A stretch of 64,000 nucleotides of DNA from a virus (IMGVR_UViG_3300001605_000025:1-64000), one strand, 5' to 3'; positions 12,108 to 63,612 are shown, numbered from the stretch's first letter. A program made the numbers and translations. The notes: generated from the sequence alone by a model not told the origin.

Positions 12108-12127
12108 TATAATTTCACATAAAATAA

Positions 12128-42592: not shown

Positions 42593-43699
42593 CTACTTCA
42601 ACTTAACCAGATCACCGGCTAGTGTTTCTATCAGTCTATACTTAATCATATCAGCTAACTTCTCGTATACCTGTTTAGCATTCCAACCTACCATTGAACA
42701 TTCCTTAACGATATCACGTCTTGCACATGTTCCGCCGTGTAACGTAACGATGCGTCTAATCTGAACAAAGTCTAGGTTATTCGCTATGTCATCTCTCCAC
42801 ATCTTTTCATTTTGTAACAACGTTACTAGATCTGGATCCGTAACATCAAGATGCATAACAGGTTCGATCTCACGTTTCATCAGATGGTATCCAAGAATTA
42901 ACCGATTGAAGTAACTCGATTCAAAACTATATATATCCATCTCATGGTACAACTTCAGTATTGAGTCGTCAAATTCGATCTTGTTAATCGTATCCATCTG
43001 GTGTACTTGATCGTCGATGTTACTCCACAACACAGACATAGCTTGTGGATTCGGTCTTACATTTTGTGTCCGATGCATGATATCCATCAACGCTATATTA
43101 TCAGCATACGTAGGTAGGAATACCATAAAGATCAGTCTACGCCCTAACCCAGAACTAAGATCATAACTTCCAGGCTGAATTCCAGCCCACATCGATAGAT
43201 TCGTCTGATAGGCTATAGCTCCAGACGATAATCGTTTGAACACTCGTCCGTGATCTAACGCTGCTAACAGTTGTGTTTCCATCTGACTATTCATCTGATT
43301 CTTTAAGGCATCAGATATCGCTTTAAACTCATCAATTAACAACAGTCCATCTTTATTCAGTTCTGCAGCTCCAGGATTATTAATGCCTAAACCGTTAACC
43401 GACACGACAGTTCCAACAAAACCGGCTTCAGTCATTGACTGTTCACTAGCAATCTGGATCTCCGTCCCGTGAAAGATACCATGTGGATCAGCAGCCATAG
43501 TCTGGAGATAGTAAGTCTTCATAAACCCAGGTGGAGCTACAAATAGTAAGTGGCATCGCATATTCGGTAACTGCTTACCAGCATAGTATATCTCCCGTTT
43601 CTGGTTCATCAGATTGAACGCATGAACAGCATAGCTACAGGTAAAGTATGGAGCGTAGATCTCCCGTTTGTAAGCTTGCCGATCAGCAAGTTCACTCAT
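42593..43699 (-). CDS. AAA-like ATPase with degenerate P-loop
   Basis: FVAPPGFMKT (degenerate Walker A), LLLIDEF (Walker B); next to the ERCC4 nuclease. Confidence 0.35.
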   Translation of the reverse strand: MSELADRQAYKREIYAPYFTCSYAVHAFNLMNQKREIYYAGKQLPNMRCHLLFVAPPGFMKTYYLQTMAADPHGIFHGTEIQIASEQSMTEAGFVGTVVSVNGLGINNPGAAELNKDGLLLIDEFKAISDALKNQMNSQMETQLLAALDHGRVFKRLSSGAIAYQTNLSMWAGIQPGSYDLSSGLGRRLIFMVFLPTYADNIALMDIMHRTQNVRPNPQAMSVLWSNIDDQVHQMDTINKIEFDDSILKLYHEMDIYSFESSYFNRLILGYHLMKREIEPVMHLDVTDPDLVTLLQNEKMWRDDIANNLDFVQIRRIVTLHGGTCARRDIVKECSMVGWNAKQVYEKLADMIKYRLIETLAGDLVKLK

Positions 43700-43722: not shown

Positions 43723-44355
43723 TTAGAATCTCTCCTTTAACGTTCTTCTTATCTGAATTGATTTCGCTGGACCAATTCCACGAACTCTCTGTAAATCTTT
43801 ATCTGGAACGTTTGCGATATTTGTTAAACAATTATGAGTCATCATTAATTGTGTCAGTTGTGCTGTTGAGATTCCAAGTAAACGTGCTGCCAGTATCGTG
43901 CGATCTCTTCTAACGGGAACATTATACTTTCCCTCATCAACTTTCTTCATGAACTTAACTAACGTGATCATACCTTCCCATTCGTTCTCTACCCATAACG
44001 GTTGAATACCGTACCGGCAGGCTATCGATGCGATCTCTCCGAAGAGAATATCTGGATCGATTGTTATCCCGATATCTCGCATATTCTTAACGTAAGGTGC
44101 TATAGCGCCTGTGATAAGCAGAATCTGGACTTTATCTTGGTGGACAGATATTCGTTCAATCTGATCGTGTATTCTACGATTAGGGCCTGTGATACTTCCA
44201 TACAAGTCTGCAATTGTCTTACGTTCAGCCAAACACCGTTCCGATTGGTAATCTCCTTCGTCTAGTTTAATCCTCCTGAACTTCATTTCCGGGAACTTCT
44301 TAGTTAAAAAGTCATAGTACTTTGGTGGCTCTCTTGTATCTACGTCGACTGGCAT
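43723..44355 (-). CDS. ERCC4/XPF-family structure-specific endonuclease with C-terminal HhH
   Basis: VDVDTREPP ... IKLDEGDYQSERCLAERKTIADLYGSI ... DQIERI matches the ERCC4 nuclease signature (VDxRE, GDY...ERK...DL..S); C-terminal GIGPAKSIQI helix-hairpin-helix. Confidence 0.75.
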   Translation of the reverse strand: MPVDVDTREPPKYYDFLTKKFPEMKFRRIKLDEGDYQSERCLAERKTIADLYGSITGPNRRIHDQIERISVHQDKVQILLITGAIAPYVKNMRDIGITIDPDILFGEIASIACRYGIQPLWVENEWEGMITLVKFMKKVDEGKYNVPVRRDRTILAARLLGISTAQLTQLMMTHNCLTNIANVPDKDLQRVRGIGPAKSIQIRRTLKERF

Positions 44356-44783: not shown

Positions 44784-45563
44784 TTAGATTAGTTTCTTTC
44801 CCTTCCGACATACCGACACCACGTCATGCTGATGAATTGATTCCTGATGTGTACAGACGACTACCCAATCTTCCATCCATCCATCGATCGTTGCACCGAT
44901 CACTCTTGAAGCATCCTCGACAAACAGATTCGTTCGGGCGGCTCGCTGACACCAATCTAGTTCGTCCGGTCTCTTCATCAACGGTATAGGAACAATGTCT
45001 ACCACTTCGATGATCCGTGCTACAATTGATGTCATTAGATCGTCCAGGTCCTCCTTCGGCGATAACAATCCAGTTACCTGTGCTAAAGCTCGCTGCATAT
45101 GAGGAACCCCTCCTTCTTGTTTCACCATTCTCATGGCACATGGGCACACACTCGCATACGGAACTTTCATAGTCAGATACCAATCTTCTTTATCGGGTAC
45201 ACGGACACCTTCTAACATACTATCTATAAAGATCAATTGTTCGTTCTCCATCTCATATGCTGCTGTCCAATTACATTCCCAGTAACTGTTAGTCGTTTCA
45301 TGTCCTTCAGCTAACGTTTCTAATAATTCTGAGTTCATATAAATCGGATCGTCCTCGTAATCTGTTAACGCATCAACTAATCGTGACATATGAACACCAG
45401 TCCGATCGATCAGATCAACATAAGCAGACTGACTTGTTAACGTTCGTCGTCCGCTAAAGTCTTGCATAAACTGTTTGAATCCTTTAATACCAACTTTCTC
45501 TAGTGGCATACCACCAGACGGACCTTCAGCATAGTCAGGTAACAATCGTACACATGAATCCAT
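44784..45563 (-). CDS. possible GTP cyclohydrolase I type 2 (FolE2/MptA-like), first step of 7-deazaguanine synthesis; assignment tentative
   Basis: ORF track 44784-45665; internal Met (MDSCVRLL) preceded by AAGGAG SD. EKVGIKGF motif near N-terminus and conserved Cys/His/Glu positions are reminiscent of the FolE2 family; located immediately downstream of queE-queD. Confidence 0.3.
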   Translation of the reverse strand: MDSCVRLLPDYAEGPSGGMPLEKVGIKGFKQFMQDFSGRRTLTSQSAYVDLIDRTGVHMSRLVDALTDYEDDPIYMNSELLETLAEGHETTNSYWECNWTAAYEMENEQLIFIDSMLEGVRVPDKEDWYLTMKVPYASVCPCAMRMVKQEGGVPHMQRALAQVTGLLSPKEDLDDLMTSIVARIIEVVDIVPIPLMKRPDELDWCQRAARTNLFVEDASRVIGATIDGWMEDWVVVCTHQESIHQHDVVSVCRKGKKLI

Positions 45564-45737
45564 ACTACTGCTCCTTTGGGTTCTTCCAGTTACCAAATAC
45601 AGTCTCAAGAACAGCTGCTGAATATGGATGTGTATTACATGAATTATGAAGTAGCTGTTGGTCACAGCTTATAGCTCGTAACGCCTCTCCAATTGCATCT
45701 ACTTTCTGTTCAAGTCTTTTAAAGTCTTTAGTAGTCA

Positions 45738-46385
45738 TTATCTCACCTTATACAGTACATGAAGTCTCGGGCTTACGGCTCCGTTAACTCCATATTCATC
45801 CATCATACGAATAATCTCACGAACCATTCTATTATGTTCCGTTATCATCGTATCGTCCTGGGGAGTCATCGGCATAAAGTACATTCTCACTTCAGAGTGT
45901 TCAGTTGCCCATTTCATCCACCATCTAATATTCTCATACCTAATAACTGGTTTAATAACTACATCTACTTCACAAATGTTAGTCCACAACGTTAATAGAT
46001 CGGTCAGTCCAGAAGTAGGTAGTTCACTATCTTTCGGACTAACAACTACCAGATCGAACGCAGCAACACCAAACGGTATCGTTCCATTCGTTTCGATAGC
46101 ATGTGTCATACCTAACGATTCAACTGAAGCGATCGTATCCTTTATCTCATCAACCTGGAGTCCAGGTTCTCCACCAGTCCAGACAACGTTCCTCACTCCT
46201 TTCTTATATGCTTTAGTAATCAGGCTTTTTAGTTCAGTCCGACTAACATTAATATACAGTGTTGCGTATTTCGTATCACAAAAAGGACAATGAAGATTAC
46301 AGCCCGATAGTCTTATAAACAACGACCGTACTCCAGCTTGTGGACCTTCACCCTGAATCGATATAAACGTTTCGTTTAGTCTCAT
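45738..46385 (-). CDS. queE: 7-carboxy-7-deazaguanine synthase (radical SAM)
   Basis: ETFISIQGEGPQAG..FIRLSGCNLHCPFCDTKY (Cx3Cx2C-like CNLHCPFCD cluster), TGGEP motif. Confidence 0.85.
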   Translation of the reverse strand: MRLNETFISIQGEGPQAGVRSLFIRLSGCNLHCPFCDTKYATLYINVSRTELKSLITKAYKKGVRNVVWTGGEPGLQVDEIKDTIASVESLGMTHAIETNGTIPFGVAAFDLVVVSPKDSELPTSGLTDLLTLWTNICEVDVVIKPVIRYENIRWWMKWATEHSEVRMYFMPMTPQDDTMITEHNRMVREIIRMMDEYGVNGAVSPRLHVLYKVR

Positions 46386-46816
46386 TGTAACCCTCTCTCA
46401 GGAGTCCACGTGACGGTAGCCTTACTAACATCATTCTCCCATACCGTCACACTAACCATTGTTAGTGGTCCAAGTTTCCAGTTGTACACATCCATCACAC
46501 TATTACAAAGTAACGTTGCAATATTTTCGCATGTTGGATTCTCTCTCGTTGGATATACTAGTTGATTACACGATCTAAGTATCTGAACTAACGGATCAGA
46601 TTCTTTCAGTATCACTTTATGATCCATACCATCCGTTAGTCTTTTAAGTACCGTAAAGTTCTCGAGGTACCCAACAGAGTTAACTTTGTCACCCTGTAAG
46701 ACAAAATCTACTTTCCAATTATGCCCATGTAAGAATCCACATTTCGAATCATCACCATACTGTCTATGTGCAGCTTCAAAATCGACAGACGTCTGTATCG
46801 TAACCATGATGTTCAC
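46382..46816 (-). CDS. queD: 6-carboxy-5,6,7,8-tetrahydropterin synthase
   Basis: FEAAHR ... KCGFLHGHNW (CxxxHGH zinc/catalytic motif) ... DHKVIL. Confidence 0.8.
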   Translation of the reverse strand: MNIMVTIQTSVDFEAAHRQYGDDSKCGFLHGHNWKVDFVLQGDKVNSVGYLENFTVLKRLTDGMDHKVILKESDPLVQILRSCNQLVYPTRENPTCENIATLLCNSVMDVYNWKLGPLTMVSVTVWENDVSKATVTWTPERGLQ

Positions 46817-49030: not shown

Positions 49031-50950
49031 TTATGAACATCCAGACCACCCGCATGTCATACACGTTCCGCTTCTACAACCCGAACCGAAACTAAGTACC
49101 GTCCCACATTGTGGACACTTATTCGTTACAATTTCAGATTCTGTAAACCAGAATGCATTCATTCGTTTCGCAAGAATATCCGGACAACTCTTTCCAGCAG
49201 AGTTTGGATTCTTCATTGCGGTAGTACACTCAACTTTCGATAGCGTCGATATGATCCGTTTAATCGTTGTCTTCTCATCACCATAGAGTCTCGGGTCATG
49301 TATATACTTGGAAATAACCTTCCCCATTCCTTCCATGTTAGCCTTACATCCGCCTTGCGTGAGAACATAAGCTTCGTATGGGTGATCGTCGGCGATGTTG
49401 TTATTGGTAGTAACGTGTATCTCGCCACACCCTGTGGGGAAGTCCAACGTTCTACCGTATCGTTCAACTCTGTCTCCTTTAGAGCTCGGTTGGCCTCTTC
49501 CTGGAATCGGTCCAGTAGGTCGAACAGATGTAAGTACCTGTTTATCTTTTGAACCATCTCGATACACCGTTATCCCTTTGCATTTCAGTTTCCAAGCTAA
49601 ATGTATCGCATCCTCAATATCCTGTACTGTAGCACTTGATGATAGATTAATCGTTTTTGATACAGCGTTATCAACATGGTTCTGCCAGGCAGCCATATGT
49701 TTCAACTGCCACTCTACAGATATATGCTTAGCTGTATCTTCTAGTAATCCATGTTGTCTTGCGAGATCGGTCAGTGGATGTTCGAGTGTTACAATTCCAG
49801 CTTCTGACTCTCGTGTGTACGTCCAGTCAAATACTGGTTCGATACCTGACGAACAATCTGCAAGGAAGGATAATGTTCCAGTTGGAGCAATCGTCATAAC
49901 TGTTTCGTTGTTATAGGTCCGTCCTGGAACTTCTCTCGTTGCAACATCATAGTACCTAGATCCAATCTTATCGATCAACTGAATCGCTTCTGTTGATTGA
50001 TAGCTGATACCCATTTTAATCAGTAAGTCAGCCCAACCCATAACACCGGATCCAATCTTTCTAGACAGTAATGTAGCCTCTCGTATCTCTGGTATCGGGA
50101 ACGTATTCAAATCAATAACATCGTTTAACGCTCGTACCGACAATCTTACCGTATCGTCAAGCATCCCGTAATCAAACGTCTCTCCTTCCGGTATCAGTTT
50201 ACTTAGATTGATAGACGCTAAATTGCACGACTCATACGGTCGTAACGGCTGTTCGCCACAAGGGTTCGTACAATCGATAACACCTCTCTCAGGAAACCGA
50301 TTCGTCTCGTTGAGTCTATCCAAAAATACGACACCGGGGTCTCCCGTTCTCCAGGCATGCTCTGCAATAGTGTGAACCAGTCCGTTATCGCTTTGCATAT
50401 CTGAGTCCTTGATCCCGACGCTAATATTGAAATGTGATAGTCCGGATCCACTATCTTTACAGTGTATAAACTCTTGGATGTCTGGATGATCAGCGTTAAG
50501 TATCCCCATATTGGCACCCTCGCGTTTACCTCCTTGGGATACCACACCGGCTGACTCGTTAAGCAATTCCATGACTTTAACAGGACCACATGCTTTCCCT
50601 TTAGTTGATTGTATAAGTGAGCCACGTGGTCTAAGTCTAGAGAAGTTGAAACCGGTTCCACCAAAGTACTTATGCACACGGGCGGCGTGCCAAACCGTTC
50701 TATATATTCCATCCAGTGAATCTTCCACTGGTAAGACGTAACACGCTGATAATCCTCCAGCTCCCGGTACGCCTGCATTAACAAGCGTCGGAGTGTTTGG
50801 CAACCAGATTCCGTGAGACATAGCATTGAGCAATGTTTCCGTGTACTTGCGATCCTCTCGTCCGATAAACTTTGCAACTCTCTCATATACATCACGTTCT
50901 GTTCTCTCTCCAGGTTGTAAATAACGATCCTTTAGTAGTTTCTCTTTCAT
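49031..50950 (-). CDS. nrdJ: ribonucleotide reductase, class II (adenosylcobalamin-dependent)
   Basis: 639 aa; active-site TNPCGEQPL, GTGFNFS, C-terminal Cys4 zinc ribbon (CPQCG...CMTCGWSGC). Confidence 0.8.
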   Translation of the reverse strand: MKEKLLKDRYLQPGERTERDVYERVAKFIGREDRKYTETLLNAMSHGIWLPNTPTLVNAGVPGAGGLSACYVLPVEDSLDGIYRTVWHAARVHKYFGGTGFNFSRLRPRGSLIQSTKGKACGPVKVMELLNESAGVVSQGGKREGANMGILNADHPDIQEFIHCKDSGSGLSHFNISVGIKDSDMQSDNGLVHTIAEHAWRTGDPGVVFLDRLNETNRFPERGVIDCTNPCGEQPLRPYESCNLASINLSKLIPEGETFDYGMLDDTVRLSVRALNDVIDLNTFPIPEIREATLLSRKIGSGVMGWADLLIKMGISYQSTEAIQLIDKIGSRYYDVATREVPGRTYNNETVMTIAPTGTLSFLADCSSGIEPVFDWTYTRESEAGIVTLEHPLTDLARQHGLLEDTAKHISVEWQLKHMAAWQNHVDNAVSKTINLSSSATVQDIEDAIHLAWKLKCKGITVYRDGSKDKQVLTSVRPTGPIPGRGQPSSKGDRVERYGRTLDFPTGCGEIHVTTNNNIADDHPYEAYVLTQGGCKANMEGMGKVISKYIHDPRLYGDEKTTIKRIISTLSKVECTTAMKNPNSAGKSCPDILAKRMNAFWFTESEIVTNKCPQCGTVLSFGSGCRSGTCMTCGWSGCS

Positions 50951-51603
50951 AGTCTCATCACGTTACCGATGTAATCTTCGTCACGCTTTAAGTACAGATG
51001 TGGACAGAAACAAATATGTGTATACGTTCCAACCGGTAGTCCTACAGCTAACGATATATGTTTCTGTAACTCCGTTAGTCCATACATATTTGGACCTAGT
51101 CCCAGTGTCATATCCTCCGACCGGAATACAACTTTCATATTTAAACGTCCTTCTCTTACATCACAATGTATCAACTGTAAGCACGGAACGTCTTCACGAG
51201 TCGTATCCAATTTCGGATTCCATGTTATCGCTTGAGCTCGTCTAGTAGATGGTGACCCAATAAGTTTCTGTTCAATATACGTTATCTGGTTGATCCCAAA
51301 GTGATGCGTTAATCGATCGTGGTAATCGTAGACAAAGTCAGCAGACGTTCCCGCAATCAGATCGTTAGCATACTGATCCATATACTTCTGACTGAACGGT
51401 AGTGTGGGAGGTTTAATAAATCGTGGTTCCACAAACGGAGTTCTAATAAACAATGCTAGTTCTTTAGCCTCAATAGTATCCTGTTTGTTCTCTCCAGGAT
51501 ATACAATCGGGCATTCAGTCTCATCTTTATAACAATGGTTCATGATATACCGTATAACGATCTCATGACCTTTCGCTAAGTTAGGTGCTTGTAACAACTT
51601 CAT
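50947..51603 (-). CDS. thymidylate synthase (ThyA)-family enzyme, short and divergent (possible dNMP hydroxymethylase)
   Basis: RRAQAITWNP, VPCLQLIHC (catalytic Cys in PC motif), RSEDMTLGLGPNMYGLTEL (RSxDxxLGxPFN-like, Asn retained so dUMP-type), CPHLY; only 218 aa and lacks the folate-binding ELLWFLxGxTN segment. Confidence 0.65.
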   Translation of the reverse strand: MKLLQAPNLAKGHEIVIRYIMNHCYKDETECPIVYPGENKQDTIEAKELALFIRTPFVEPRFIKPPTLPFSQKYMDQYANDLIAGTSADFVYDYHDRLTHHFGINQITYIEQKLIGSPSTRRAQAITWNPKLDTTREDVPCLQLIHCDVREGRLNMKVVFRSEDMTLGLGPNMYGLTELQKHISLAVGLPVGTYTHICFCPHLYLKRDEDYIGNVMRL

Positions 51604-52136
51604 CCTTCACTTCCTTACGTTTCTTTTTAGCCGATAGTCTAGCAGATTCACGTGAACATGTTTTACATACATAAGTTCGTCCTCTTTTCTCATGCCAGTA
51701 ATTAGTTGTAACGTAGAACTGATCTTCTGGTAGATCTTGTTTACAGTGAGAACATATCATTTTAAATCCTCGTTTAAATTATGTATTGTTCACCAAAAAT
51801 AACGTATTGTGCAAAGATATTTATTATTTCCTATATATGAATCGTGTGGAGTTGAACAATAAGTTATCTATGATATCTACTCACAATGCTATCCAATATC
51901 TTATTTACTTTCAGTGCGTATTCCTTACATCCACCTTGCATCTCTACAGCTACTGCAATCTCCCATAACTCAGTATCAGTAATGCAGTACTTTCGTGCAG
52001 GTGGACGTTCAATCACGATATCACCTACTTCTTATCGAACGTAATAACAACACGCTCAACTGGTAATATAGTAGCCTTAAGTTCAAGTTTCACATACGAC
52101 ACCCCGTAGAACATTAAGTCACGATTCACTCGTTCC

Positions 52137-52442
52137 TCACTTCTCCGGCCATGGTCGTCTATTAGCATGAAACATATACCCAACTCGTTGTAACGATCCA
52201 TCTAGTAGTCTAATACAAACTATCTCCGCATGATATCCAGCAGCTTCTAATGGAGCTACTTCATTACATATGATATCATTACATTCAGTAGTTAACCTAT
52301 TTGCTTGATCACCAAACTCAGTAACTGTTATCAATCCTGCTTTTAGGTCAAACCATAGATCATCTTTCCGTTTAGCTAATATCTGTAATCGATCGTGAGC
52401 ATCTTTTAATTCTTGAAGCTTCTGATCAGTCATAAATATCAC
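52137..52442 (-). CDS. hypothetical protein
   Basis: 101 aa. Confidence 0.3.
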   Translation of the reverse strand: MIFMTDQKLQELKDAHDRLQILAKRKDDLWFDLKAGLITVTEFGDQANRLTTECNDIICNEVAPLEAAGYHAEIVCIRLLDGSLQRVGYMFHANRRPWPEK

Positions 52443-53184
52443 TAAACTTCTTTAGTCCATCATCTGGAAACAACCTCGGTAACTCCTCTAACGTACACAT
52501 ACGACAGGCTGCAAACTTTCCGTCCGAACAACGATACGGGAAGTCATTCTTATCTATTGCAGCACGTAGTTTAGCAATCCGTGTCAAAGCTAACCGTCTC
52601 ATATCATCTGTTAACTGTTCAGTATATATGGCTTGCAATCTTGGATTAATCAATCGAAGTTCGGTTATAGTTCCTGGGTTACCTGATAACTCCCAAAGTA
52701 CCGCATAGAAAGCTAATTGTCGTATAGCAGATTCCGTATTCATCTTACTACCGGTCTTATACTCTATCAGTCGTACAGTATTATATAGTTTGTCAACCCA
52801 CTCTGCACCATCTAACGTTGACTTTATCTGTATACGATCACATTGCATAAACAGTTCACGATACAGTGGACAGAACTCGTTCTCACGTTCCTCATTCCTT
52901 AGTTTGTCAAGTCGTTTCCGTTGATACGATAGGAACCATTCATACATTGATAGTTCTTCTTCATTCAACCAGTCTGCGGGTATTAGTTCCGACCAATCAT
53001 CAGGATCAATAGTTAGTGCATAGTCGAAGAATCGTTCAGCAAACTCATGAAACCTAGTCCCGATCAGCATCTTCTGGTTAACGGGTTTATTAACCAGTTC
53101 GACGTATTGGTGGTAAAATTGTCTCGGACAGAAGTCATAACTTTCTAGCATCGACTTTCGTATATGTTTATCGTTCATATACAT
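52426..53184 (-). CDS. Cas4-like PD-(D/E)xK exonuclease with Fe-S cysteine cluster
   Basis: N-terminal CPRQFYHQY, core IEYKTG (EhK), QLAFYAVLW (QhxxY), C-terminal CSDGKFAACRMC. Confidence 0.7.
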   Translation of the reverse strand: MYMNDKHIRKSMLESYDFCPRQFYHQYVELVNKPVNQKMLIGTRFHEFAERFFDYALTIDPDDWSELIPADWLNEEELSMYEWFLSYQRKRLDKLRNEERENEFCPLYRELFMQCDRIQIKSTLDGAEWVDKLYNTVRLIEYKTGSKMNTESAIRQLAFYAVLWELSGNPGTITELRLINPRLQAIYTEQLTDDMRRLALTRIAKLRAAIDKNDFPYRCSDGKFAACRMCTLEELPRLFPDDGLKKFSDIYD

Positions 53185-53260
53185 CCTCCGTGAAGAATCA
53201 CCAACGCAATCGCTATTATGAATCCCAATAGGACACCCAGTACAACATCTTGATTTACGT

Positions 53261-53962
53261 TCATATGTCTAACCTGTTTGATATAATCCATCCACAACCT
53301 ATTCCAGCAGCATTACCACTAATCGTTAGCGGCATATCTTGACCGATACCAATTATACACTCCTGTAGTCTACCGATTATCGGCTGTATCTGTTTCAAAT
53401 AATCAGTAGCTACAAGTACTGTAACTTTAGGTGCTTCCTCCTTTCGTATCGTAATCTCATCACGTTTATACGTAACGTCAACAAGTTCAGCTAACTTATC
53501 TTCAAAAACGATACCATCTGGTCCATACGTTATTTTCATAGCAGCACTACTGTCTTTCTTATCATAAGCGTCAGTAATTGTTTGTATCCCAAACTTCAGA
53601 TCGTTAGGTGTCATTGTAAAAACATTAGTCCATGGAATCTTCGGACTCGGTCCAGGTTTTACACCAGTCAATCTTTTCAGTTTATAGTTTGCACGTCCTG
53701 AATGAACAACTACCGGATTATCCAGTTCAATTGTAACGTCCCCAACCATCGTAGATGGAAAGTCATCAAACCTAAGTGCTAGATTAGTTGCATCAGTAGA
53801 CGTACAAGCAACTTTACATTCTACGAATCCTACCAACGCAATATCAGTCGCAGACATGAATAGATGATCCAGTTGAACGTTGATGTTACTTTCAGGAACA
53901 AACGATCTCATAATCGCTAACGCTAATGTTAATCGTTCTCCAGTTATCGTAATACTAGTCAT
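53261..53962 (-). CDS. hypothetical protein (possible gp45/PCNA-like sliding clamp)
   Basis: 233 aa, size and neighbourhood of T4-type family B polymerase; no clear motif. Confidence 0.2.
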   Translation of the reverse strand: MTSITITGERLTLALAIMRSFVPESNINVQLDHLFMSATDIALVGFVECKVACTSTDATNLALRFDDFPSTMVGDVTIELDNPVVVHSGRANYKLKRLTGVKPGPSPKIPWTNVFTMTPNDLKFGIQTITDAYDKKDSSAAMKITYGPDGIVFEDKLAELVDVTYKRDEITIRKEEAPKVTVLVATDYLKQIQPIIGRLQECIIGIGQDMPLTISGNAAGIGCGWIISNRLDI

Positions 53963-54109
53963 GGGTACTCTCCAGTCAGTTTACCTTTATAATTTCGTCT
54001 CCGTTTGATAATTTCTGTCCTACCTTTGGTTTAATTTTCATTACCGTTGTACTCAGTTTACCTTCTGGACTTCTAACAGATACAATCCATTTCGTCTGAG
54101 GTTTCCGTG

Positions 54110-54670
54110 TCATGGTGTATTCTCGAAATAACGAGATCCCGTGGCTCCAGTCTGATCATGATATTTTGCGTCATGTTTCGAATAATACGGAACATTAGCG
54201 TGGTGTGTCTTATAAAAAACTAATTGAGCGATAGGCATCCCAGCTGTCAGAATGATAGAGCGCATATTCTCGTTCGTCATCTCTAAGGTAATTGTACCCC
54301 GGAATCCGCAATCCACCCATCCGCCAGTTTGATGTACAGTAATCCCTAATCTCGCTAACGAGCTTTTGCCTTCGATCGTCGCACATACTTCATCACTTAA
54401 CTCAATCCGTTCCATCGTTTCAGCTAGTAAGAATGAATTCTTCTCTAATGTTATCCGTTCAGCTGTAAAATGATGTAGACCAAGTTCTACTGATTCTTTA
54501 TCATATGGATCAATCGGATAGTTAAATGACTGGATATCATACACAGCAAAGTTATTACCTAGTCTAACATCAATACTATTCGACTGAATACCATTCTTAT
54601 ATAGTGGCAGTATCTTTATATCTCCACTTTCCAATAATCCGTTCAGTTGCCAATCAACCATTACGCTCAT
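54110..54670 (-). CDS. dcd: dCTP deaminase (dUTPase superfamily)
   Basis: IDVRLGNNF, GKSSLARLGITVH, HDAKYHDQTGA line up with Dcd motifs VDVRLGNKF, GRSSLARLGL, EDAKYRNQQGA. Confidence 0.8.
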   Translation of the reverse strand: MSVMVDWQLNGLLESGDIKILPLYKNGIQSNSIDVRLGNNFAVYDIQSFNYPIDPYDKESVELGLHHFTAERITLEKNSFLLAETMERIELSDEVCATIEGKSSLARLGITVHQTGGWVDCGFRGTITLEMTNENMRSIILTAGMPIAQLVFYKTHHANVPYYSKHDAKYHDQTGATGSRYFENTP

Positions 54671-55161
54671 TTATTATCATCCACCTTCGTTAACGTTGTA
54701 GTTATCGGGTTCTTTATTTCATTCGCTAACGCCCATTGTCTTGGATCATTCCACGGTTCGGGTTGGAATCCAACACCTGTTTCTTTCTTAAACTGATTAT
54801 CAGTAACGTATACAATTAAGAACCAGAGCATCCATCCTATACGTGCACGAAGTTCAGGAATTGCAACATACATCCATACGAAGTGATCAATTATAGGTCC
54901 AAAGATACTCTTTAACGTCTCATCAGTTTCATGTGACATGTAGTATTGTCTAAACATAAGCATTACGTGGTTGTTGGAGTTCCGCCAAATTGGATTACTA
55001 GGATTCCAGAGTTCAGGATCCAATTCCAGACTACCGATCACAATTGACATTCCTCTTAGTCTATCCAAAATAATAGGATCTATCGTCAACTTTCCATCTC
55101 CGTGTATCTGATATTCATTCTTATCTGTTACAGTTGCAGTCGCACTACCTTGTTGTTTCAT
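54667..55161 (-). CDS. hypothetical protein
   Basis: 164 aa, Trp-rich. Confidence 0.3.
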   Translation of the reverse strand: MKQQGSATATVTDKNEYQIHGDGKLTIDPIILDRLRGMSIVIGSLELDPELWNPSNPIWRNSNNHVMLMFRQYYMSHETDETLKSIFGPIIDHFVWMYVAIPELRARIGWMLWFLIVYVTDNQFKKETGVGFQPEPWNDPRQWALANEIKNPITTTLTKVDDNK

Positions 55162-55835
55162 CCTTTACCACCATGCATCATATCCCATAATTGACCACGA
55201 CCTGCAGGATACCAATGTTCTGGATAGAATGCCTTCAGTCCTAGACGTGATAACTCATCTCTTTTATACATATCTTTATGAACGTTCAGTCTCTCAATAA
55301 CAAAATTAACAGATCGTTCAATACCTTCATCAGTTTCGTACATATGAATTCCATAGTCCCAGAACTTGGTAATATATTCGATACGATCCATTCGTTTCTC
55401 ATGTGTCAGATATAGTGCACGTTCCTCCTTAAGTATCGTTAAACGTTTAGACTTATCGGTAGTACTCCATTCAGTATACCGTTCTATCAGTCTCCACATT
55501 AGATATCCGAATCGTTCATAGTACATATCATCATTTCGATGAAGAACCACTAGAAATGCTCCTAACCGGTGTATTGCAAGTCTATTCAACCACGAACATC
55601 CTTTTAACAATTTGGGTATCTCACGAACATACTCATCAAATAGTACCATGGTTAACTTCATACTGTCAGTTATAAACTCACCACTATCAACTCGTAACCA
55701 CTCAGGTCTTAATATCAATCCTTTCAGTAGATTAATATTATTACCGTTCATGATCACATCAAGAATCAGTGGTTTGTCTTTCGCATGGAACTCGGCTCCA
55801 TGTCCATCATCATACCATAAACTAGGAACTCTCAT
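55158..55835 (-). CDS. hypothetical protein
   Basis: 225 aa. Confidence 0.3.
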   Translation of the reverse strand: MRVPSLWYDDGHGAEFHAKDKPLILDVIMNGNNINLLKGLILRPEWLRVDSGEFITDSMKLTMVLFDEYVREIPKLLKGCSWLNRLAIHRLGAFLVVLHRNDDMYYERFGYLMWRLIERYTEWSTTDKSKRLTILKEERALYLTHEKRMDRIEYITKFWDYGIHMYETDEGIERSVNFVIERLNVHKDMYKRDELSRLGLKAFYPEHWYPAGRGQLWDMMHGGKG

Positions 55836-56340
55836 TGAACACCTGTGTCTGTACTCTTTCTAGTGGAATTGTACCAATATCTTTAACACCATATTCAACC
55901 GACGTAGCTGTAAGTGCCTGTCGGTTACCATACGAAAAATATACATAGTATAGTCCGATAGAGGATCCTTTAGGAAGTGTCACACTGAATGATCCATCAC
56001 CGGTTGTACTAGTATTGGCGACATCTTTAGAACTTTCATTTTTCACGGTAACTACTATAGCTGCTTGTGGAAGACCATCTACTGTGGCCTTACCTTGAAT
56101 TTTAATATAGTCAGGAGTCGGAGTTGGTGTAGGTGTTGGTACAATAACCAATACTAGGAGTATAGCCACGAGTATCATGACTGTCCATACTATCTGTTTC
56201 AGATCCATTTGATCACATCCAATTAGAACCATTTTGTTAGTCCGGTTTGTCCATTGATTTCTGTATCCCAATTCAATCCGATAGATTCCATTAAAGACTC
56301 CATCTTCATCTGAACTGTCTTCAGTCCCATTTTTTGCCAA
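55822..56340 (-). CDS. membrane-anchored protein with (PT)n linker and Ig-like beta domain
   Basis: TM helix (IVWTVMILVAILLVLVIV) then PTPTPTPTPD then beta-rich domain. Confidence 0.35.
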   Translation of the reverse strand: MAKNGTEDSSDEDGVFNGIYRIELGYRNQWTNRTNKMVLIGCDQMDLKQIVWTVMILVAILLVLVIVPTPTPTPTPDYIKIQGKATVDGLPQAAIVVTVKNESSKDVANTSTTGDGSFSVTLPKGSSIGLYYVYFSYGNRQALTATSVEYGVKDIGTIPLERVQTQVFNESS

Positions 56341-58508: not shown

Positions 58509-58511
58509 AGT

Positions 58512-59105
58512 TTATCCTCTGTGTAACCATCCTGGAAGTCCACCATGCACATTGAACCGATTAGATGCAATCACATCAGACCAGTCACCTGGATGCATAA
58601 TGATACAACCTCTCGGTGCAGACGCATGTACAAGTACACGTATACTTTGTCTACCATCATCTAAACCTAGATCCCAACTCATTGAATGTGTTTCAGGTAC
58701 AGAATCAACTTGCTGACCATATAGATGTAACCGATCGATAAGTAGATATACTGCTCGTCCAACGGCACACCTTATCATATCGAATCTCGAATTTTTAATT
58801 GTATCGTTATCTATAGCAAGCTGAACCCCAACAGGTAAGTATAACGTTACGACGACACGTAAATGATTATCTGAGTACGCACGAATCTTTAGATGTTCCA
58901 TAATACGTTCTACACGTGGACTAGTCCTAGCTAGTTTAACTAACTCTTCATAAACTGCACATTCTACATCTGGTTTTCTTGAACCGTTCTTTAGTTGCTT
59001 AAACGTAAGCGTAAGATGTGCTAAAGCTTCAAGTACGTCAGTAGGATTCTCATCTCTAAACAATGCAAATATCCTATCAGCTATATACTGCTGTCTAGTG
59101 TTCAT
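58512..59105 (-). CDS. hypothetical protein
   Basis: 197 aa. Confidence 0.3.
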   Translation of the reverse strand: MNTRQQYIADRIFALFRDENPTDVLEALAHLTLTFKQLKNGSRKPDVECAVYEELVKLARTSPRVERIMEHLKIRAYSDNHLRVVVTLYLPVGVQLAIDNDTIKNSRFDMIRCAVGRAVYLLIDRLHLYGQQVDSVPETHSMSWDLGLDDGRQSIRVLVHASAPRGCIIMHPGDWSDVIASNRFNVHGGLPGWLHRG

Positions 59106-59305
59106 AAATCACCACAAACCTTGAGTATACAGTTGTTCGTAAATCTCGTTAATCCGATCTCCAATTTCATCCCAACGTGCACACTCATTATCAGACAGTA
59201 CACATCCACTAGCTTCCATTGCTTGAAACCTATTCCACTGGACAACAAGTTTAGCTTGTTCAGCTTTCATAGCTTTAGCTTGTTCCCTAGTAATGTTTAC
59301 CATAT

Positions 59306-59569
59306 CTAGCTCCGTACGTAGAATCCAGGATCATTCTCTACAATGTACAATCTTCGTTCATGCTTCAATGGAACATGTGTCGGTCTCATAATTATAGTCC
59401 CATCTTCTTTCAGATAGTAATAATCATTCTCCGAAACAGGTCTCATATGTACAGCCCTACATTTTTTACATCCATAGTGTGATACAAGAATCCATCCATA
59501 GCTAGAACGTTCCGTATACCAGACACCTAAAAATGTTATGTCATCAGATCCACACGTTGGACATTTCAT
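59306..59569 (-). CDS. zinc-ribbon protein
   Basis: CPTCGSDD ... CKKCRAV. Confidence 0.35.
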   Translation of the reverse strand: MKCPTCGSDDITFLGVWYTERSSYGWILVSHYGCKKCRAVHMRPVSENDYYYLKEDGTIIMRPTHVPLKHERRLYIVENDPGFYVRS

Positions 59570-59657
59570 ACTTTCACCTTTTGTTTACGTTCCTTATTTG
59601 CCCTTCGTTTCGCATCCTTCTTATCATGCGACCGTCCTCGTGGTAACATTCTAACCA

Positions 59658-60494
59658 TTAGTCCACCATTGATCGCTTTGGTAGTTCAGACTCAGCAAAG
59701 ATCATCTGACCGTCAGCTTGTGTAAACGCATCCAGGAACTGAATATTCTTCACGATATCGTACATCATCACCTTATCATCAAGTCCAGAGTTATCAGATC
59801 CATCCCAACTAATCGGTAACCGTGATGTAACTTTCCGTCCGTCCATCTTAACGTTCCGTGTTATCTGCCACTGCTGTTTCAAATCGACTTCGTTAATAGC
59901 AGCACTAACACACAAGCTACTATCAATACTATTAAACCGACCAGCCATATTATATATTTCAAGCAGGTTATCCCATCCAAACGCGTGGACGTAACGATCT
60001 TGAGGAAGGTCCAAAAACTTATGCAAGCTACCACGATCGAAACCAAGACGGTAACTAAAGATACTGATTCCGAGAGCGACATCTCTATACTTCCGTATCA
60101 TATTCCACTGTTCTAGCATCTCGTTAGGTCTTTCGTGAAGAATACACATCAGATTAATATTATCATCCAGAAGACCTTCAGACTGGTACTCCTCCAGAAT
60201 ATCAATAGTCATCCGACCAGTTTCAATTCCATCCGTCAGTTTCTCAGGTCCAACAACGAACACCTGATCGGCATCAAGTTGTCTAGCCATGACCATCATA
60301 TGTTCAAAATCAGTAGCCTTTACATCTTCATATAATGCATTATCTAGAACTACGGTATCCCATTTCCGTCCGAGATAGAAGTCTCGATAGGCTTTAATCT
60401 TCCAGTACTGTGATAGAATAAAAACATTAGTTGTTCCTGCAACATCTAACGTCTCCAGGTATCCAATCGGAACGATCGGCATATAGTTAACCAT
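59658..60494 (-). CDS. possible TGT-like DNA-guanine transglycosylase (DpdA-like); tentative
   Basis: VVLDNALYE aligns with TGT active-site ILTDSGGFQ; HAFGWDN...FNSIDSSLCV aligns with YLMGVGKP...GIDMFDCV; no zinc site, as in phage DpdA. Confidence 0.35.
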   Translation of the reverse strand: MVNYMPIVPIGYLETLDVAGTTNVFILSQYWKIKAYRDFYLGRKWDTVVLDNALYEDVKATDFEHMMVMARQLDADQVFVVGPEKLTDGIETGRMTIDILEEYQSEGLLDDNINLMCILHERPNEMLEQWNMIRKYRDVALGISIFSYRLGFDRGSLHKFLDLPQDRYVHAFGWDNLLEIYNMAGRFNSIDSSLCVSAAINEVDLKQQWQITRNVKMDGRKVTSRLPISWDGSDNSGLDDKVMMYDIVKNIQFLDAFTQADGQMIFAESELPKRSMVD

Positions 60495-60897
60495 TCAGTT
60501 CATCTCCTTTAACAATAATAGTAGATGATGTTCCCGTTAACGCTGTTCGTTTCTTTGGACTAATCGGTTGTAAGCTAGTTACATGATCCGATAACATTGA
60601 TATGTCCGAATCCGTACCGATTACCGGAGCATGTTCCACTGATGGTTGTGTAGCATCATCCAGTAACGATAATGCTAGTGCGCAATAATTCGCAGTATCG
60701 ATCAGTTCATCACGAAGCTTAGAACTCGATACAGAGTACCGCGCTCGTGTAGCCTTAATCGTGATCTGGACTAACCAATCTTCAAGTCCATGTAATGCAA
60801 TAACATCAGTCGTATATCCAGGACCAGCAGACGTAAGTCTGTCAATCATATGTTCTAACTGTTTAATAGCTTTCTTCGTTCTTTCATCAGCAGTCAT
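60487..60897 (-). CDS. hypothetical protein
   Basis: 136 aa. Confidence 0.3.
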   Translation of the reverse strand: MTADERTKKAIKQLEHMIDRLTSAGPGYTTDVIALHGLEDWLVQITIKATRARYSVSSSKLRDELIDTANYCALALSLLDDATQPSVEHAPVIGTDSDISMLSDHVTSLQPISPKKRTALTGTSSTIIVKGDELNG

Positions 60898-60991
60898 TCA
60901 CTTACCTCGTTTTACACATTCACAGATAACACGTTTCATATCTCCGTACTTCGGACTATGAAGTTCAACTCTCACTCCAGTTCCTCCGCAT

Positions 60992-61969: not shown

Positions 61970-61972
61970 ATG

Positions 61973-63496: not shown

Positions 63497-63522
63497 AACA
63501 CTTCTCCAGTATTAGGTATTCG

Positions 63523-63609: not shown

Positions 63610-63612
63610 ATT

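What the first reader, a model, noticed from the sequence alone, without database searches (positions are those of the whole stretch)
44784..46816. 7-deazaguanine (preQ0-type) biosynthesis genes queE-queD plus a possible FolE2-like gene, with a candidate DpdA-like transglycosylase 13 kb away
QueE (radical SAM, CNLHCPFCD) and QueD (CGFLHGHNW) are confidently identified. The adjacent 260-aa gene may be a type-2 GTP cyclohydrolase. No QueC (SGGxDS PP-loop) is visible in the window. The pathway may therefore stop at 7-carboxy-7-deazaguanine or borrow host QueC.

ORF 59658-60494 has a TGT-like active-site pattern (VVLDNALYE and IDSSLCV) without the zinc site, as in phage DpdA enzymes that insert 7-deazaguanines into DNA. 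Together these predict that virion DNA carries a 7-deazaguanine derivative as anti-restriction armour. This connects to the G-free template strand of the 11.5-12.3 kb cassette.
Basis: partly seen in the sequence, partly recalled or inferred. Interest (0 to 1): 0.6.

Follow-up and report, generated by a model that had tools for sequence, protein, structure and literature searches.

The report
Viral 7-deazaguanine DNA-modification gene set
This uncultivated ~75-kb virus carries a full gene set (FolE2, QueD, QueE, a DpdL-type enzyme just outside the window, and a DpdA3-type DNA transglycosylase) that most likely swaps guanine in its own DNA for 7-deazaguanine, a known anti-restriction strategy found here in a new lineage with a different first enzyme.

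Summary
QueD (46382-46816), QueE (45738-46385) and a FolE2-type GTP cyclohydrolase (44784-45563) lie on the minus strand. No QueC is present.

ORF 59658-60494 has no Pfam, NCBIfam or PDB sequence hit. Its AlphaFold model (pLDDT 91.6) matches DpdA and tRNA-guanine transglycosylases best. Its family profile aligns full-length with reference DpdA3 proteins, including Cellulophaga phage phiST (98.4%, E 4e-15).

The missing-QueC puzzle has an answer outside the window. The same genome (a 74.9-kb contig, identical over the 12-kb overlap) encodes a DpdL homologue about 2.9 kb past the window end. It has the LxxxHRHxF signature, a QueD-like fold, and a 98.2% profile match to phiST DpdL.

In related viruses the que cluster comes with QueC or without it. 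DpdL was seen only in the lineage that lacks QueC.

The best reading is a phiST-type pathway: GTP to CDG to 7-deazaguanine, then base exchange into DNA (dDG). This is a new member of a kind described in 2023. Two features differ: FolE2 replaces FolE, and the DpdA3 clade is divergent.

The final product is inferred, not shown. The G-free stretch is real (885 nt), but its link to this system is speculative.

The parts
46382..46816 (-). queD: 6-carboxy-5,6,7,8-tetrahydropterin (CPH4) synthase, 144 aa. An alternative ATG start lies at 46807.
   Evidence: PF01242 E 2e-21. Best NCBIfam model is QueD, TIGR03367, 6.6e-17. PHROG 2389 'QueD-like' 7e-25. Motif C26-GFL-H30-G-H32 matches CxxxHGH. Matches PDB QueD 4ntm/3qn0.
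45738..46385 (-). queE: radical-SAM 7-carboxy-7-deazaguanine (CDG) synthase, 215 aa. It overlaps queD by 4 nt.
   Evidence: PF04055 1.8e-13. The top five NCBIfam hits are all QueE models. PHROG 2076 'QueE-like' 3e-33 over the full length. Matches PDB QueE 6nhl, 4njg and 5tgs. CX3CX2C cluster motif CNLHCPFC.
45565..45738 (-). Small 57-aa ORF wedged between queE and folE2, function unknown. It occupies the slot where QueC sits in the QueC-bearing sister lineage, but it is not a QueC remnant.
   Evidence: Its start overlaps the queE stop, and its stop lies 1 nt before the folE2 ATG. It shows no similarity to QueC. Its only homologue is a small ORF next to the AAA_24 gene in L001 (54% over 50 aa, E 2e-11). 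Closer relatives have queE and folE2 directly adjacent (L023, L024).
44784..45563 (-). folE2: type IB GTP cyclohydrolase I, 259 aa from the ATG at 45563. The mechanical ORF extends to a GTG at 45665. It makes 7,8-dihydroneopterin triphosphate from GTP.
   Evidence: PF02649 4e-32, profile 9-259 of 260. NCBIfam FolE2 1.2e-29 versus MptA 5.6e-12. Matches PDB FolE2 2r5r, 8g6c and 3d2o. 61 homologue clusters all carry PF02649, several on 60-78-kb viral contigs.
59658..60494 (-). dpdA3-like: zinc-less TGT-fold DNA guanine transglycosylase candidate, 278 aa. It sits in the replication module between the AAA_24 ATPase gene and polB.

Best explanation
The window comes from a ~75-kb tailed dsDNA virus that encodes a complete phiST-type 7-deazaguanine DNA-modification pathway.

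Proposed steps:
1. FolE2 converts GTP to dihydroneopterin triphosphate.
2. QueD converts that to CPH4.
3. QueE, a radical-SAM enzyme, converts CPH4 to 7-carboxy-7-deazaguanine (CDG).
4. There is no QueC, so preQ0 is not made by the virus.
5. Instead, a DpdL homologue is predicted to decarboxylate CDG to 7-deazaguanine (DG). DpdL is a QueD-fold paralogue in which the catalytic Cys is replaced by Leu, giving the motif LREPHRHKF. It is encoded about 2.9 kb beyond the window's 3' end (L010:6214-6597).
6. The DpdA3-like TIM-barrel transglycosylase (59658-60494) then exchanges guanine in the replicated viral DNA for this base, giving 2'-deoxy-7-deazaguanosine (dDG). By analogy with TGT and DpdA, D191 would be the nucleophile and D51 the general acid/base.

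Removing N7 from the major groove blocks restriction enzymes and other DNA-targeting defences.

What is shown here: gene identities by sequence, profile and predicted fold; conservation of candidate catalytic residues; physical linkage in one genome; co-occurrence across related genomes.

What is inferred: every enzymatic activity, the identity of the final base, the extent of replacement, and the protective role.
For: Precursor genes:
- QueD, QueE and FolE2 are identified.

The transglycosylase:
- Fold results place the product in the TGT/DpdA superfamily.
- Profile-profile comparison places it in DpdA3: 98.4%, E 4e-15, full length. Against phiST DpdA3 alone, E 8e-6.
- Among all 327 window ORFs, the best BLASTP hit of phiST DpdA3 is this ORF.
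- Reference DpdA3 itself has no Pfam hit, so the negative Pfam result is expected.

The same genome:
- L010 (contig logan SRR943323_269151, 74,870 bp) is identical to window 51973-64000, with 0 mismatches in 12,028 nt.

DpdL:
- L010:6214-6597 matches DpdL of a relative at 42% identity, E 2e-24.
- The profile of five window-clade DpdL homologues against phiST DpdL gives 98.2%, E 2.9e-14.
- H19, L31, H35, H37, F39, R53, E56, S79, C80, E81 and E106 are invariant with phiST DpdL.
- The AF2 model (pLDDT 92.5) matches E. coli QueD 4ntk best, TM about 0.7.

Co-occurrence of DpdA3-like and que genes:
- By sequence: the window genome; IMGVR 3300001605_000037 (L013+L024); 3300039098_000077 (L038); 3300038675_000143 (L018+L019); 3300013099_000024 (L026).
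- The 74,747-bp contig carries QueD-QueE-FolE2 without QueC (L049); its DpdA3-like gene is linked only by matching contig length.
- By matching contig length only: 73,974.

QueC versus DpdL pattern:
- Relatives with QueC (L019/L020/L028, L048, L026) show no DpdL in the parts seen.
- Relatives with DpdL (window genome, L013/L024) have queD-queE-folE2 without QueC.
- The DpdL and DpdA3-like hit lists share seven contig lengths: 74981, 64943, 73974, 70639, 25018, 13825 and 16070.

Literature:
- In phiST, FolE+QueD+QueE+DpdL+DpdA3 without QueC goes with complete G to dDG replacement and restriction resistance (PMC10516641).
Against: - No activity of DpdL has ever been demonstrated. Its authors could not reconstitute dDG formation in E. 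coli (PMC10516641). The dDG end product therefore rests on one correlative precedent.
- The DpdA3-like protein is only about 20% identical to reference DpdA3.
- Its link to TGT by sequence alone is weak. The PDB HMM search found no hit. hhalign against E. coli TGT gave only 6.8% probability.
- Assignment of catalytic residues is by conservation and motif order, not by superposition.
- The position equivalent to the base-recognising Asp is Glu (E84) in this clade.
- All three que proteins score below NCBIfam equivalog cut-offs.
- The first 1.3 kb of the contig was not inspected.
- Several relatives were seen only in 20-kb pieces, so the QueC/DpdL exclusivity rests on few fully seen genomes.
- The host might supply QueC.
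- There are no data on the actual DNA.
Confidence: 0.6

Rival explanations
1. The pathway ends at CDG. The DpdA3-like enzyme inserts CDG itself, giving dCDG in DNA. Alternatively, decarboxylation or amidation happens on the DNA. The DpdL-like protein would then act after insertion or do something else.
For: QueE is the last canonical enzyme present and QueC is absent. [quoted passage not shown]
Against: In phiST, which has the same gene set, no dCDG was detected and G was fully replaced by dDG. The DpdL homologue is conserved in this virus lineage, with its metal-binding His residues intact. That argues for a working enzyme acting on a pterin- or purine-like small molecule.
Confidence: 0.12
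2. The virus relies on host QueC to turn its CDG into preQ0, possibly with further host enzymes. The transglycosylase would then insert preQ0 or a derivative (dPreQ0, dADG or dPreQ1).
For: A sister lineage carries its own QueC between QueE and FolE2, or next to the DpdA3-like gene (L019, L020, L048, L026). So DpdA3-like enzymes of this group can evidently work with QueC products. Many hosts encode QueC (general knowledge).
Against: In the genomes examined, those that lack QueC and could be checked carry DpdL, and those with QueC do not. That looks like a switch of end product rather than outsourcing. The DpdA3-like proteins of the two lineages differ at conserved motifs, HAFGWDN against HALGIDD and ILHE against VFQG. 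This is compatible with different substrates.
Confidence: 0.1
3. The que genes are auxiliary metabolic genes that boost host queuosine/archaeosine tRNA modification or pterin supply. The TIM-barrel ORF 13 kb away would be an unrelated replication-module protein. Viral DNA would be unmodified.
For: The ORF lies in the replication module, not next to the que genes, and has no hit in Pfam, NCBIfam or PDB sequence searches. Several relatives with the ORF showed no que genes within 10 kb either side (L001, L002).
Against: The fold and the profile place it specifically in TGT/DpdA3. Where whole or large parts of genomes were seen, the ORF and the que genes are on the same contig. L001 and L002 carry DpdL, which has no known role outside DNA deazaguanine pathways. 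In Bacillus phage BSP7 the DpdA3 gene also sits directly upstream of the DNA polymerase gene.
Confidence: 0.05

Closest known systems
Cellulophaga phage phiST dDG system: FolE, QueD, QueE, DpdL, DpdA3, no QueC (Hutinet, Cui et al. 2023, PMC10516641)
   Same: Same logic and the same set of steps: GTP cyclohydrolase, QueD, QueE, a QueD-paralogue DpdL with LxxxHRHxF, and a ~260-aa zinc-less DpdA3 transglycosylase, with no QueC. Profile matches are 98.4% for DpdA3 and 98.2% for DpdL.
   Different: - The first step uses FolE2 (type IB, PF02649) instead of FolE.
- DpdA3 and DpdL are only about 20-25% identical to phiST's.
- The genes are dispersed. The que cluster, dpdA3 and dpdL lie about 13 kb and about 6.4 kb apart, rather than in one block.
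- The virus backbone is unrelated: PolB, Ro60, class II RNR.
- There is no MazG/dUTPase-like gene detectably similar to CGPG_00068.
Bacterial DpdA of the Dpd restriction-modification system (Salmonella Montevideo, PDB 7ui4; PMC10164549)
   Different: There is no zinc-binding C-terminal insertion (278 against 413 aa). Identity is 12%. No DpdB ATPase or DpdC partner is recognised. The predicted substrate is DG rather than preQ0.
QueC-containing sister viruses found here (L019/L020/L028, L048, L026) and Bacillus phage BSP7 (QueC, QueD, QueE, FolE, DpdA3)
   Same: They have the same replication module and the same queD-queE-...-folE2-ERCC4 arrangement. Their DpdA3-like gene is 30-37% identical.
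   Different: They encode QueC and so can make preQ0. No DpdL was seen in them. Their DpdA3-like proteins carry clade-specific substitutions in conserved motifs.
DpdA4 (PF20314/DUF6610) of haloarchaeal viruses such as HVTV-1
   Same: It is also a distant viral TGT relative that inserts a 7-deazaguanine (preQ1) into DNA (PMC10516641).
   Different: The window protein does not hit PF20314 in Pfam-A at E <= 0.01. It aligns with DpdA3 instead.

Membership tests
QueD (CPH4 synthase, T-fold, PF01242 / TIGR03367) | PTPS/T-fold domain | tested here: met
   PF01242 76.6 bits against a cut-off of 22.4, E 2e-21. Matches PDB QueD 4ntm and 3qn0.
QueD (CPH4 synthase, T-fold, PF01242 / TIGR03367) | CxxxHGH motif with the catalytic Cys. 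This distinguishes QueD from DpdL (PMC10516641). | tested here: met
   Sequence ...KCGFLHGHNW....
QueD (CPH4 synthase, T-fold, PF01242 / TIGR03367) | NCBIfam equivalog cut-off | tested here: not met
   61.7 bits against a cut-off of 89.25. It is still the best-scoring model, so this is a divergent member.
QueE (7-carboxy-7-deazaguanine synthase, radical SAM) | Radical-SAM CX3CX2C cluster motif and radical-SAM domain | tested here: met
   CNLHCPFC; PF04055 1.8e-13.
QueE (7-carboxy-7-deazaguanine synthase, radical SAM) | Closer to QueE than to other radical-SAM families | tested here: met
   The top five NCBIfam models are all QueE (7e-23 to 6e-16); the next is NrdG2 at 1e-13. The top three PDB hits are QueE. 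PHROG QueE-like 3e-33, full length. The gene is adjacent to queD in all relatives.
QueE (7-carboxy-7-deazaguanine synthase, radical SAM) | NCBIfam equivalog cut-off | tested here: not met
   81.5 bits against cut-offs of 200-300.
FolE2 (GTP cyclohydrolase IB, PF02649) | Full-length GCHY-1 domain above the Pfam gathering score | tested here: met
   112.2 bits against 25, profile 9-259 of 260. Matches PDB FolE2 2r5r, 8g6c and 3d2o.
FolE2 (GTP cyclohydrolase IB, PF02649) | FolE2 rather than the archaeal MptA or GTP cyclohydrolase IV branch | tested here: met
   FolE2 model 1.2e-29 against MptA 5.6e-12 and GCH IV 7.5e-9. It is below the equivalog cut-off (103.7 against 215).
FolE2 (GTP cyclohydrolase IB, PF02649) | Metal-ligand and active-site residues | tested here: inconclusive
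   C140, C142, H155, E201, H239, E241, H244 and H246 are invariant in 25 homologues. They were not mapped onto a solved active site.
TGT superfamily (tRNA/DNA guanine transglycosylases) | (beta/alpha)8 barrel of the TGT type | tested here: met
TGT superfamily (tRNA/DNA guanine transglycosylases) | Three invariant active-site aspartates: general acid/base, base recognition, nucleophile (PMC10164549) | tested here: inconclusive
   D51 and D191 are invariant, and position 84 is always D or E. A weak hhalign places D191 on the E. coli TGT nucleophile D264. No structural superposition was possible with these tools.
TGT superfamily (tRNA/DNA guanine transglycosylases) | Structural Zn site (CxCxxC...H) | tested here: not met
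   There are only two Cys (117, 195), neither conserved. The protein ends soon after strand 8. The five DpdA3 references aligned here are equally short (253-277 aa) and show no invariant Cys, so this does not argue against DpdA3 membership.
TGT superfamily (tRNA/DNA guanine transglycosylases) | Pfam TGT (PF01702) sequence match | tested here: not met
   No Pfam or NCBIfam hit at E <= 0.01. The same holds for phiST DpdA3.
DpdA3 (viral DNA 7-deazaguanine transglycosylase subfamily, reference phiST CGPG_00065) | Homology to reference DpdA3 over the full length | tested here: met
   hhalign of A1 against phiST alone: 83.5%, E 8e-6. Against phiST, MA9V-3, BSP7 and two IMG/VR DpdA3: 98.4%, E 4e-15, 235 columns. 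Shared invariants are LDN, HxxG and SxD.
DpdA3 (viral DNA 7-deazaguanine transglycosylase subfamily, reference phiST CGPG_00065) | Encoded in viral genomes together with 7-deazaguanine synthesis genes | tested here: met
   Co-occurrence on the window genome and at least five related contigs.
DpdA3 (viral DNA 7-deazaguanine transglycosylase subfamily, reference phiST CGPG_00065) | Guanine / 7-deazaguanine exchange activity on DNA | not testable with these tools
   This needs biochemistry. It has not been reconstituted for any DpdA3 so far (PMC10516641).
DpdA4 (PF20314 / DUF6610) | Match to PF20314 | tested here: not met
   No Pfam hit.
DpdL (proposed CDG decarboxylase; the gene lies outside the window at L010:6214-6597) | LxxxHRHxF in place of QueD's CxxxHGH | tested here: met
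   LREPHRHKF. L31, H35, R36, H37 and F39 are invariant in 35 homologues.
DpdL (proposed CDG decarboxylase; the gene lies outside the window at L010:6214-6597) | QueD-like T-fold and homology to phiST DpdL (CGPG_00067) | tested here: met
   AF2 pLDDT 92.5. The best Foldseek hit is E. coli QueD 4ntk, E 1e-5, TM 0.7. hhalign against phiST DpdL gives 98.2%, E 2.9e-14.
DpdL (proposed CDG decarboxylase; the gene lies outside the window at L010:6214-6597) | Occurs with DpdA, a GTP cyclohydrolase, QueD and QueE, but without QueC | tested here: met
   This holds for the window genome and for IMGVR 3300001605_000037.
DpdL (proposed CDG decarboxylase; the gene lies outside the window at L010:6214-6597) | CDG decarboxylase activity | not testable with these tools
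   It has never been shown for any member (PMC10516641).
QueC (preQ0 synthase) | PP-loop SGGxDS and PF06508 | tested here: not met
   The motif is absent in all six frames of the window and of L010, and present in L019 and L026. tblastn with relatives' QueC finds no hit. No PF06508 is recorded among the called genes of contig positions 1332-25170.

The most novel reading that the evidence does not exclude
The 885-nt stretch with no G on the + strand (11452-12336) might be an adaptation to genome-wide G to 7-deazaguanine replacement. It carries four tightly packed minus-strand ORFs whose mRNA would contain no C.

On this reading, the template strand of the first leftward genes carries no modifiable base. 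It would therefore never be a DpdA substrate, never hold a covalent or abasic intermediate, and present no modified template base to the host RNA polymerase. That would link DNA hypermodification to strand-specific sequence composition.

A second, more modest novel reading concerns the QueC-to-DpdL swap between sister lineages. Together with matching substitutions in their DpdA3-like proteins, it may record a recent natural switch of the inserted base from preQ0 to DG.
Probability: 0.1. Interest if true: 0.8.

Novelty: new member of a known kind. Interest (0 to 1): 0.42.

Why it matters
7-Deazaguanine replacement of G is one of the most complete DNA hypermodifications known in viruses. The dDG branch (DpdL plus DpdA3) rests on a single phage group, and its enzymology is unproven.

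What this locus adds:
- The same gene logic occurs in an unrelated, uncultivated virus lineage found in many metagenomes.
- FolE2 replaces FolE here. FolE2 is essentially absent from 50,697 deposited phage records.
- The DpdA3 clade is invisible to Pfam and BLAST annotation.
- Sister genomes carry QueC instead of DpdL. This gives a natural comparison that supports DpdL acting on CDG.
- That comparison also supplies paired DpdA3 variants for working out how substrate specificity is set.

Practical consequences:
- DNA from such viruses may behave abnormally in restriction-based and nanopore workflows.
- The proteins are candidates for enzymatic synthesis of 7-deaza-dG DNA.

Tried and rejected
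**Searches on the 278-aa ORF that found nothing**
- Pfam, NCBIfam, PHROGs and PDB HMM searches gave nothing usable.
- tblastn against 50,697 phage records gave only E >= 0.5.
- The assignment came only from predicted structure and profile-profile comparison.

**Other negative or failed attempts**
- hhalign of the wide DpdA3 profile against a single E. coli TGT sequence gave 6.8% probability. It was used only as a weak pointer for D191.
- A nucleotide search of the que region against phage records found no match.
- DpdL was not found inside the window. BLASTP with phiST DpdL and a motif scan both failed. It turned up only after a relative's DpdL (L015) was used as a bridge and the adjoining contig sequence was fetched.
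- The profile of window-clade DpdL against the window's own QueD was not significant (5.3%).
- I could not fetch the part of IMGVR 3300039098_000077 upstream of position 13789, to look for DpdL there.
- The 136-aa ORF upstream of dpdA3 is conserved in L038 (E 1e-9). It shows no similarity to phiST's MazG-like CGPG_00068.

**Ideas considered and rejected**
- The 57-aa ORF between queE and folE2 as a QueC remnant. It has no similarity to QueC. The equally long ORF at the same place in L021 is unrelated to it.
- DpdA4 membership.

**Host identification attempts**
- The genome-contig scan gave one hit, in a 12.9-kb contig binned to a Planctomycetales MAG.
- No tRNA genes were found in the window.
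- The archaeal TATA-like motif TTTAWATA is not enriched: 7 found against 10.3 expected.
- The host remains unresolved.

**Other checks**
- No long G-free runs occur in any fetched locus, apart from 91-142 nt upstream of the terminase genes in four TerL relatives.
Full report
**1. What is in the window**

The window (GC 41%) is part of a tailed dsDNA virus. It has a plus-strand structural module (about 12.5-42 kb) and minus-strand replication and early modules. It has no nucleotide match among 50,697 deposited phage records.

The finding's coordinates hold three co-directional, tightly packed minus-strand genes.

QueD, 46382-46816:
- PF01242 E 2e-21.
- Its best NCBIfam model is QueD.
- It carries the motif CGFLHGH.
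- It matches solved QueD structures.

QueE, 45738-46385:
- It has the radical-SAM motif CNLHCPFC.
- Its five best NCBIfam models are all QueE.
- It matches PHROG QueE-like at 3e-33.
- It matches solved QueE structures at about 1e-10.

FolE2, 44784-45563:
- PF02649 E 4e-32, nearly full length.
- The NCBIfam FolE2 model scores 1e-29 against MptA at 6e-12.
- It matches solved FolE2 structures.

All three score below NCBIfam's strict equivalog cut-offs, so they are divergent members.

The FolE2 gene most likely starts at the ATG at 45563. A 57-aa ORF (45565-45738) is wedged between queE and folE2, with overlapping or abutting start and stop codons.

The neighbours are replication and nucleotide-metabolism genes:
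- ERCC4 nuclease
- MCM-like ATPase
- RNase H
- class II ribonucleotide reductase
- a short ThyA-like protein
- Cas4-like nuclease
- dCTP deaminase
- family B DNA polymerase
- AAA_24 ATPase
- a Ro60/TROVE protein

**2. The candidate transglycosylase**

ORF 59658-60494 (278 aa) gave no hit in Pfam or NCBIfam, only a marginal PHROG hit, and no PDB sequence-profile hit.

It has 37 homologue clusters, all unannotated metagenomic proteins, several on 50-75-kb contigs.

H170-x-x-G173 and R154 are also invariant.

Structural evidence:
- An AlphaFold model built on this alignment is confident (pLDDT 91.6, pTM 0.90) and is a (beta/alpha)8 barrel.
- The 50 best Foldseek matches are all tRNA-guanine transglycosylases (E about 3e-8, TM 0.63).

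The protein has two non-conserved cysteines and ends soon after the barrel, so it lacks the TGT zinc subdomain.

**3. Which DpdA subfamily**

The 2023 paper on phage 7-deazaguanines (PMC10516641) defines two relevant subfamilies:
- DpdA3 has the reference phiST CGPG_00065, is about 260 aa, and was found only by HHpred.
- DpdA4 corresponds to PF20314 and occurs in archaeal viruses.

I fetched phiST. The results were:
- The family profile aligns with phiST DpdA3 over 218 columns (E 8e-6).
- phiST DpdA3's best BLASTP hit among all 327 window ORFs is this ORF.
- I built a five-member DpdA3 reference set from phiST, Chryseobacterium phage MA9V-3, Bacillus phage BSP7 and two IMG/VR phages. Against it the profile-profile probability is 98.4%, E 4e-15, over 235 columns.
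- In the joint alignment D51, N52, R154, H170, G173, S189 and D191 are invariant, and position 84 is always Asp or Glu.

This pattern is compatible with the Asp95/Asp130/His181/Asp256 active site of DpdA (PMC10164549). However, I could not superpose structures. The only direct pointer is a weak hhalign that puts D191 on the nucleophile of E. coli TGT.

PF20314 (DpdA4) is not matched. Reference DpdA3 is itself invisible to Pfam. I therefore file the ORF as a divergent DpdA3.

**4. The missing QueC and the gene outside the window**

QueC is absent:
- No SGGxDS motif occurs in any frame.
- tblastn with relatives' QueC gives no hit.
- No other deazaguanine enzyme appears among the remaining ORFs scanned.

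In phiST the set FolE+QueD+QueE+DpdA3 without QueC goes with a QueD paralogue, DpdL. Its motif is LxxxHRHxF in place of CxxxHGH. It is proposed to decarboxylate CDG to 7-deazaguanine, and phiST DNA has G fully replaced by dDG.

How the DpdL homologue was found:
- Searching relatives' loci with phiST DpdL found a homologue in L015, a virus whose DpdA3-like protein is 59% identical to the window's.
- Using that protein as a bridge found homologues in L013, L001, L002 and L010.
- L010 is part of a 74,870-bp contig that is identical to window 51973-64000, with 0 mismatches in 12,028 nt.

The gene (L010:6214-6597, 127 aa, motif LREPHRHKF) corresponds to window-equivalent coordinates 66900-67283. 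That is about 2.9 kb beyond the window's end.

Evidence that it is a DpdL:
- The five window-clade proteins match phiST DpdL at 98.2%, E 2.9e-14.
- The signature residues are invariant in 35 homologues.
- Its AlphaFold model (pLDDT 92.5) matches E. coli QueD best.
- A profile search finds 353 clusters of this family in metagenomes.

**5. Comparative genomics**

The DpdA3-like gene keeps its place between the AAA_24 gene and polB in relatives.

It shares a contig with queD-queE-folE2 in:
- the window genome;
- IMGVR 3300001605_000037 (L013+L024);
- 3300039098_000077 (L038);
- 3300038675_000143 (L018+L019, the whole 22-kb contig);
- 3300013099_000024 (L026);
- the 74,747-bp contig, whose que cluster was read directly (L049) but whose DpdA3-like gene is linked by matching contig length only;
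- the 73,974-bp contig, by matching contig length only.

Two lineages emerge.
- In the window's lineage (FolE2 >= 48% identical), queD-queE-folE2 has no QueC. This covers the window, L049, L024, L023 and L021/L022.
- In the sister lineage (FolE2 41-44% identical), QueC sits between queE and folE2 (L019, L020, L048) or next to the DpdA3-like gene (L026).

DpdL was seen only in the first lineage. The DpdL and DpdA3-like hit lists share seven contig lengths. No DpdL was seen in the QueC-bearing contigs, one of which was seen whole.

The DpdA3-like proteins of the two lineages differ in otherwise conserved motifs: HAFGWDN against HALGIDD, and ILHE against VFQG.

The caveat is that several genomes were visible only in 20-kb pieces.

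**6. Mechanism and confidence**

The best-supported reading is a phiST-type pathway:
- FolE2, QueD and QueE make CDG.
- DpdL makes 7-deazaguanine.
- The DpdA3-like enzyme exchanges it for guanine in viral DNA after replication.

I put about 0.85 on "the DNA carries some 7-deazaguanine derivative" and about 0.6 on "it is dDG".

Rivals are direct insertion of CDG, use of host QueC to reach preQ0, and a purely metabolic role of the que genes.

Nothing here is biochemical. DpdL activity in particular has never been demonstrated.

**7. Novelty**

The kind of system is known (2023). This is a new member in an unrelated virus backbone.

Three features are worth noting:
- FolE2 stands in place of FolE. 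Only two doubtful records among 50,697 phage entries have a FolE2. IMG/VR holds at least 15 viral contigs with one, some with phiST-like DpdA3 and DpdL (L031-L033, L037).
- The DpdA3 clade is undetectable by standard annotation.
- There is a natural QueC/DpdL alternation between sister lineages.

**8. The G-free stretch**

The + strand of 11452-12336 has no G at all over 885 nt. The next longest G-free run is 66 nt, and the longest C-, A- and T-free runs are 30-39 nt.

It contains four packed minus-strand ORFs whose proteins lack P, H, Q, T and A.

Small contigs from relatives with TerL 70-89% identical have only 91-142-nt G-free runs at the equivalent position.

No result links it to the deazaguanine system. 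The duplex there would still carry modified G on the other strand. I record it as a separate, striking and unexplained feature.

Noticed in passing
window 11452-12336: 885 nt have no G at all on the + strand. The stretch covers four tightly packed minus-strand ORFs of 41, 89, 48 and 63 aa. Their mRNA would be C-free, and their proteins lack Pro, His, Gln, Thr and Ala. It lies just left of the divergent region before the terminase genes. Relatives with 70-89% identical TerL have only 91-142-nt G-free runs at that spot.
   Followed up: partly
window 61973-63496 (-) and 63953-64000 (-); L010:8900-10001: A Ro60/TROVE+vWA protein is encoded (PF05731 2e-30). A gene-free gap of about 1.1 kb lies upstream of it. 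That gap contains an Rfam tRNA-model hit (L010:9482-9544, 30.9 bits; cut off at the window end) that ARAGORN does not call as a tRNA. It may be a tRNA-like module of a Y-RNA/YrlA-type partner RNA.
   Followed up: partly
L010:6214-6597 (window-equivalent 66900-67283, outside the window): The DpdL homologue that completes the pathway lies just beyond the window's 3' end. A reader restricted to the window cannot see it.
   Followed up: yes
window 50947-51603 (-): A short (218 aa) thymidylate-synthase-like protein matches only the C-terminal half of PF00303. It keeps PC...RSxD...N-type motifs (sequence). It sits next to a class II RNR and near a dCTP deaminase. Whether it is a plain ThyA or a dUMP-modifying enzyme (a second DNA modification) was not tested.
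   Followed up: no
L002:10794-11654, L002:8441-8659, L021:1064-1963, L021:2711-3217: In relatives, the replication module around the DpdA3-like gene carries known anti-defence genes. Gad2 lies directly downstream of DpdA3-like. Tad2-like, Gad1 and Tad3 are also present (precomputed Pfam). This fits a counter-defence hotspot and hints at bacterial hosts.
   Followed up: no
window 60487-60897 (-): A 136-aa ORF overlaps the start of the DpdA3-like gene by 8 nt. It is conserved upstream of the orthologue in L038 (E 1e-9). It has no family hit and no similarity to phiST's MazG-like gene. It could be a partner or accessory of the transglycosylase.
   Followed up: partly
window 43723-44355 (-) and 42593-43699 (-): An ERCC4/XPF-type nuclease follows folE2, directly or after one or two small ORFs, in every que-bearing relative seen far enough downstream (L019-L022, L048, L049). 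A ~370-aa protein follows it in the window lineage (window, L021/L022, L049); in the window it is a weak MCM P-loop match (PF00493, E 2.7e-4). So the que genes are embedded in a conserved replication/repair block.
   Followed up: no
L026:13 and L026:1417-2118: One QueC-bearing relative has two PP-loop (SGGLDS) ORFs near its DpdA3-like gene. The second could be a QueC paralogue that makes a different 7-substituent.
   Followed up: no
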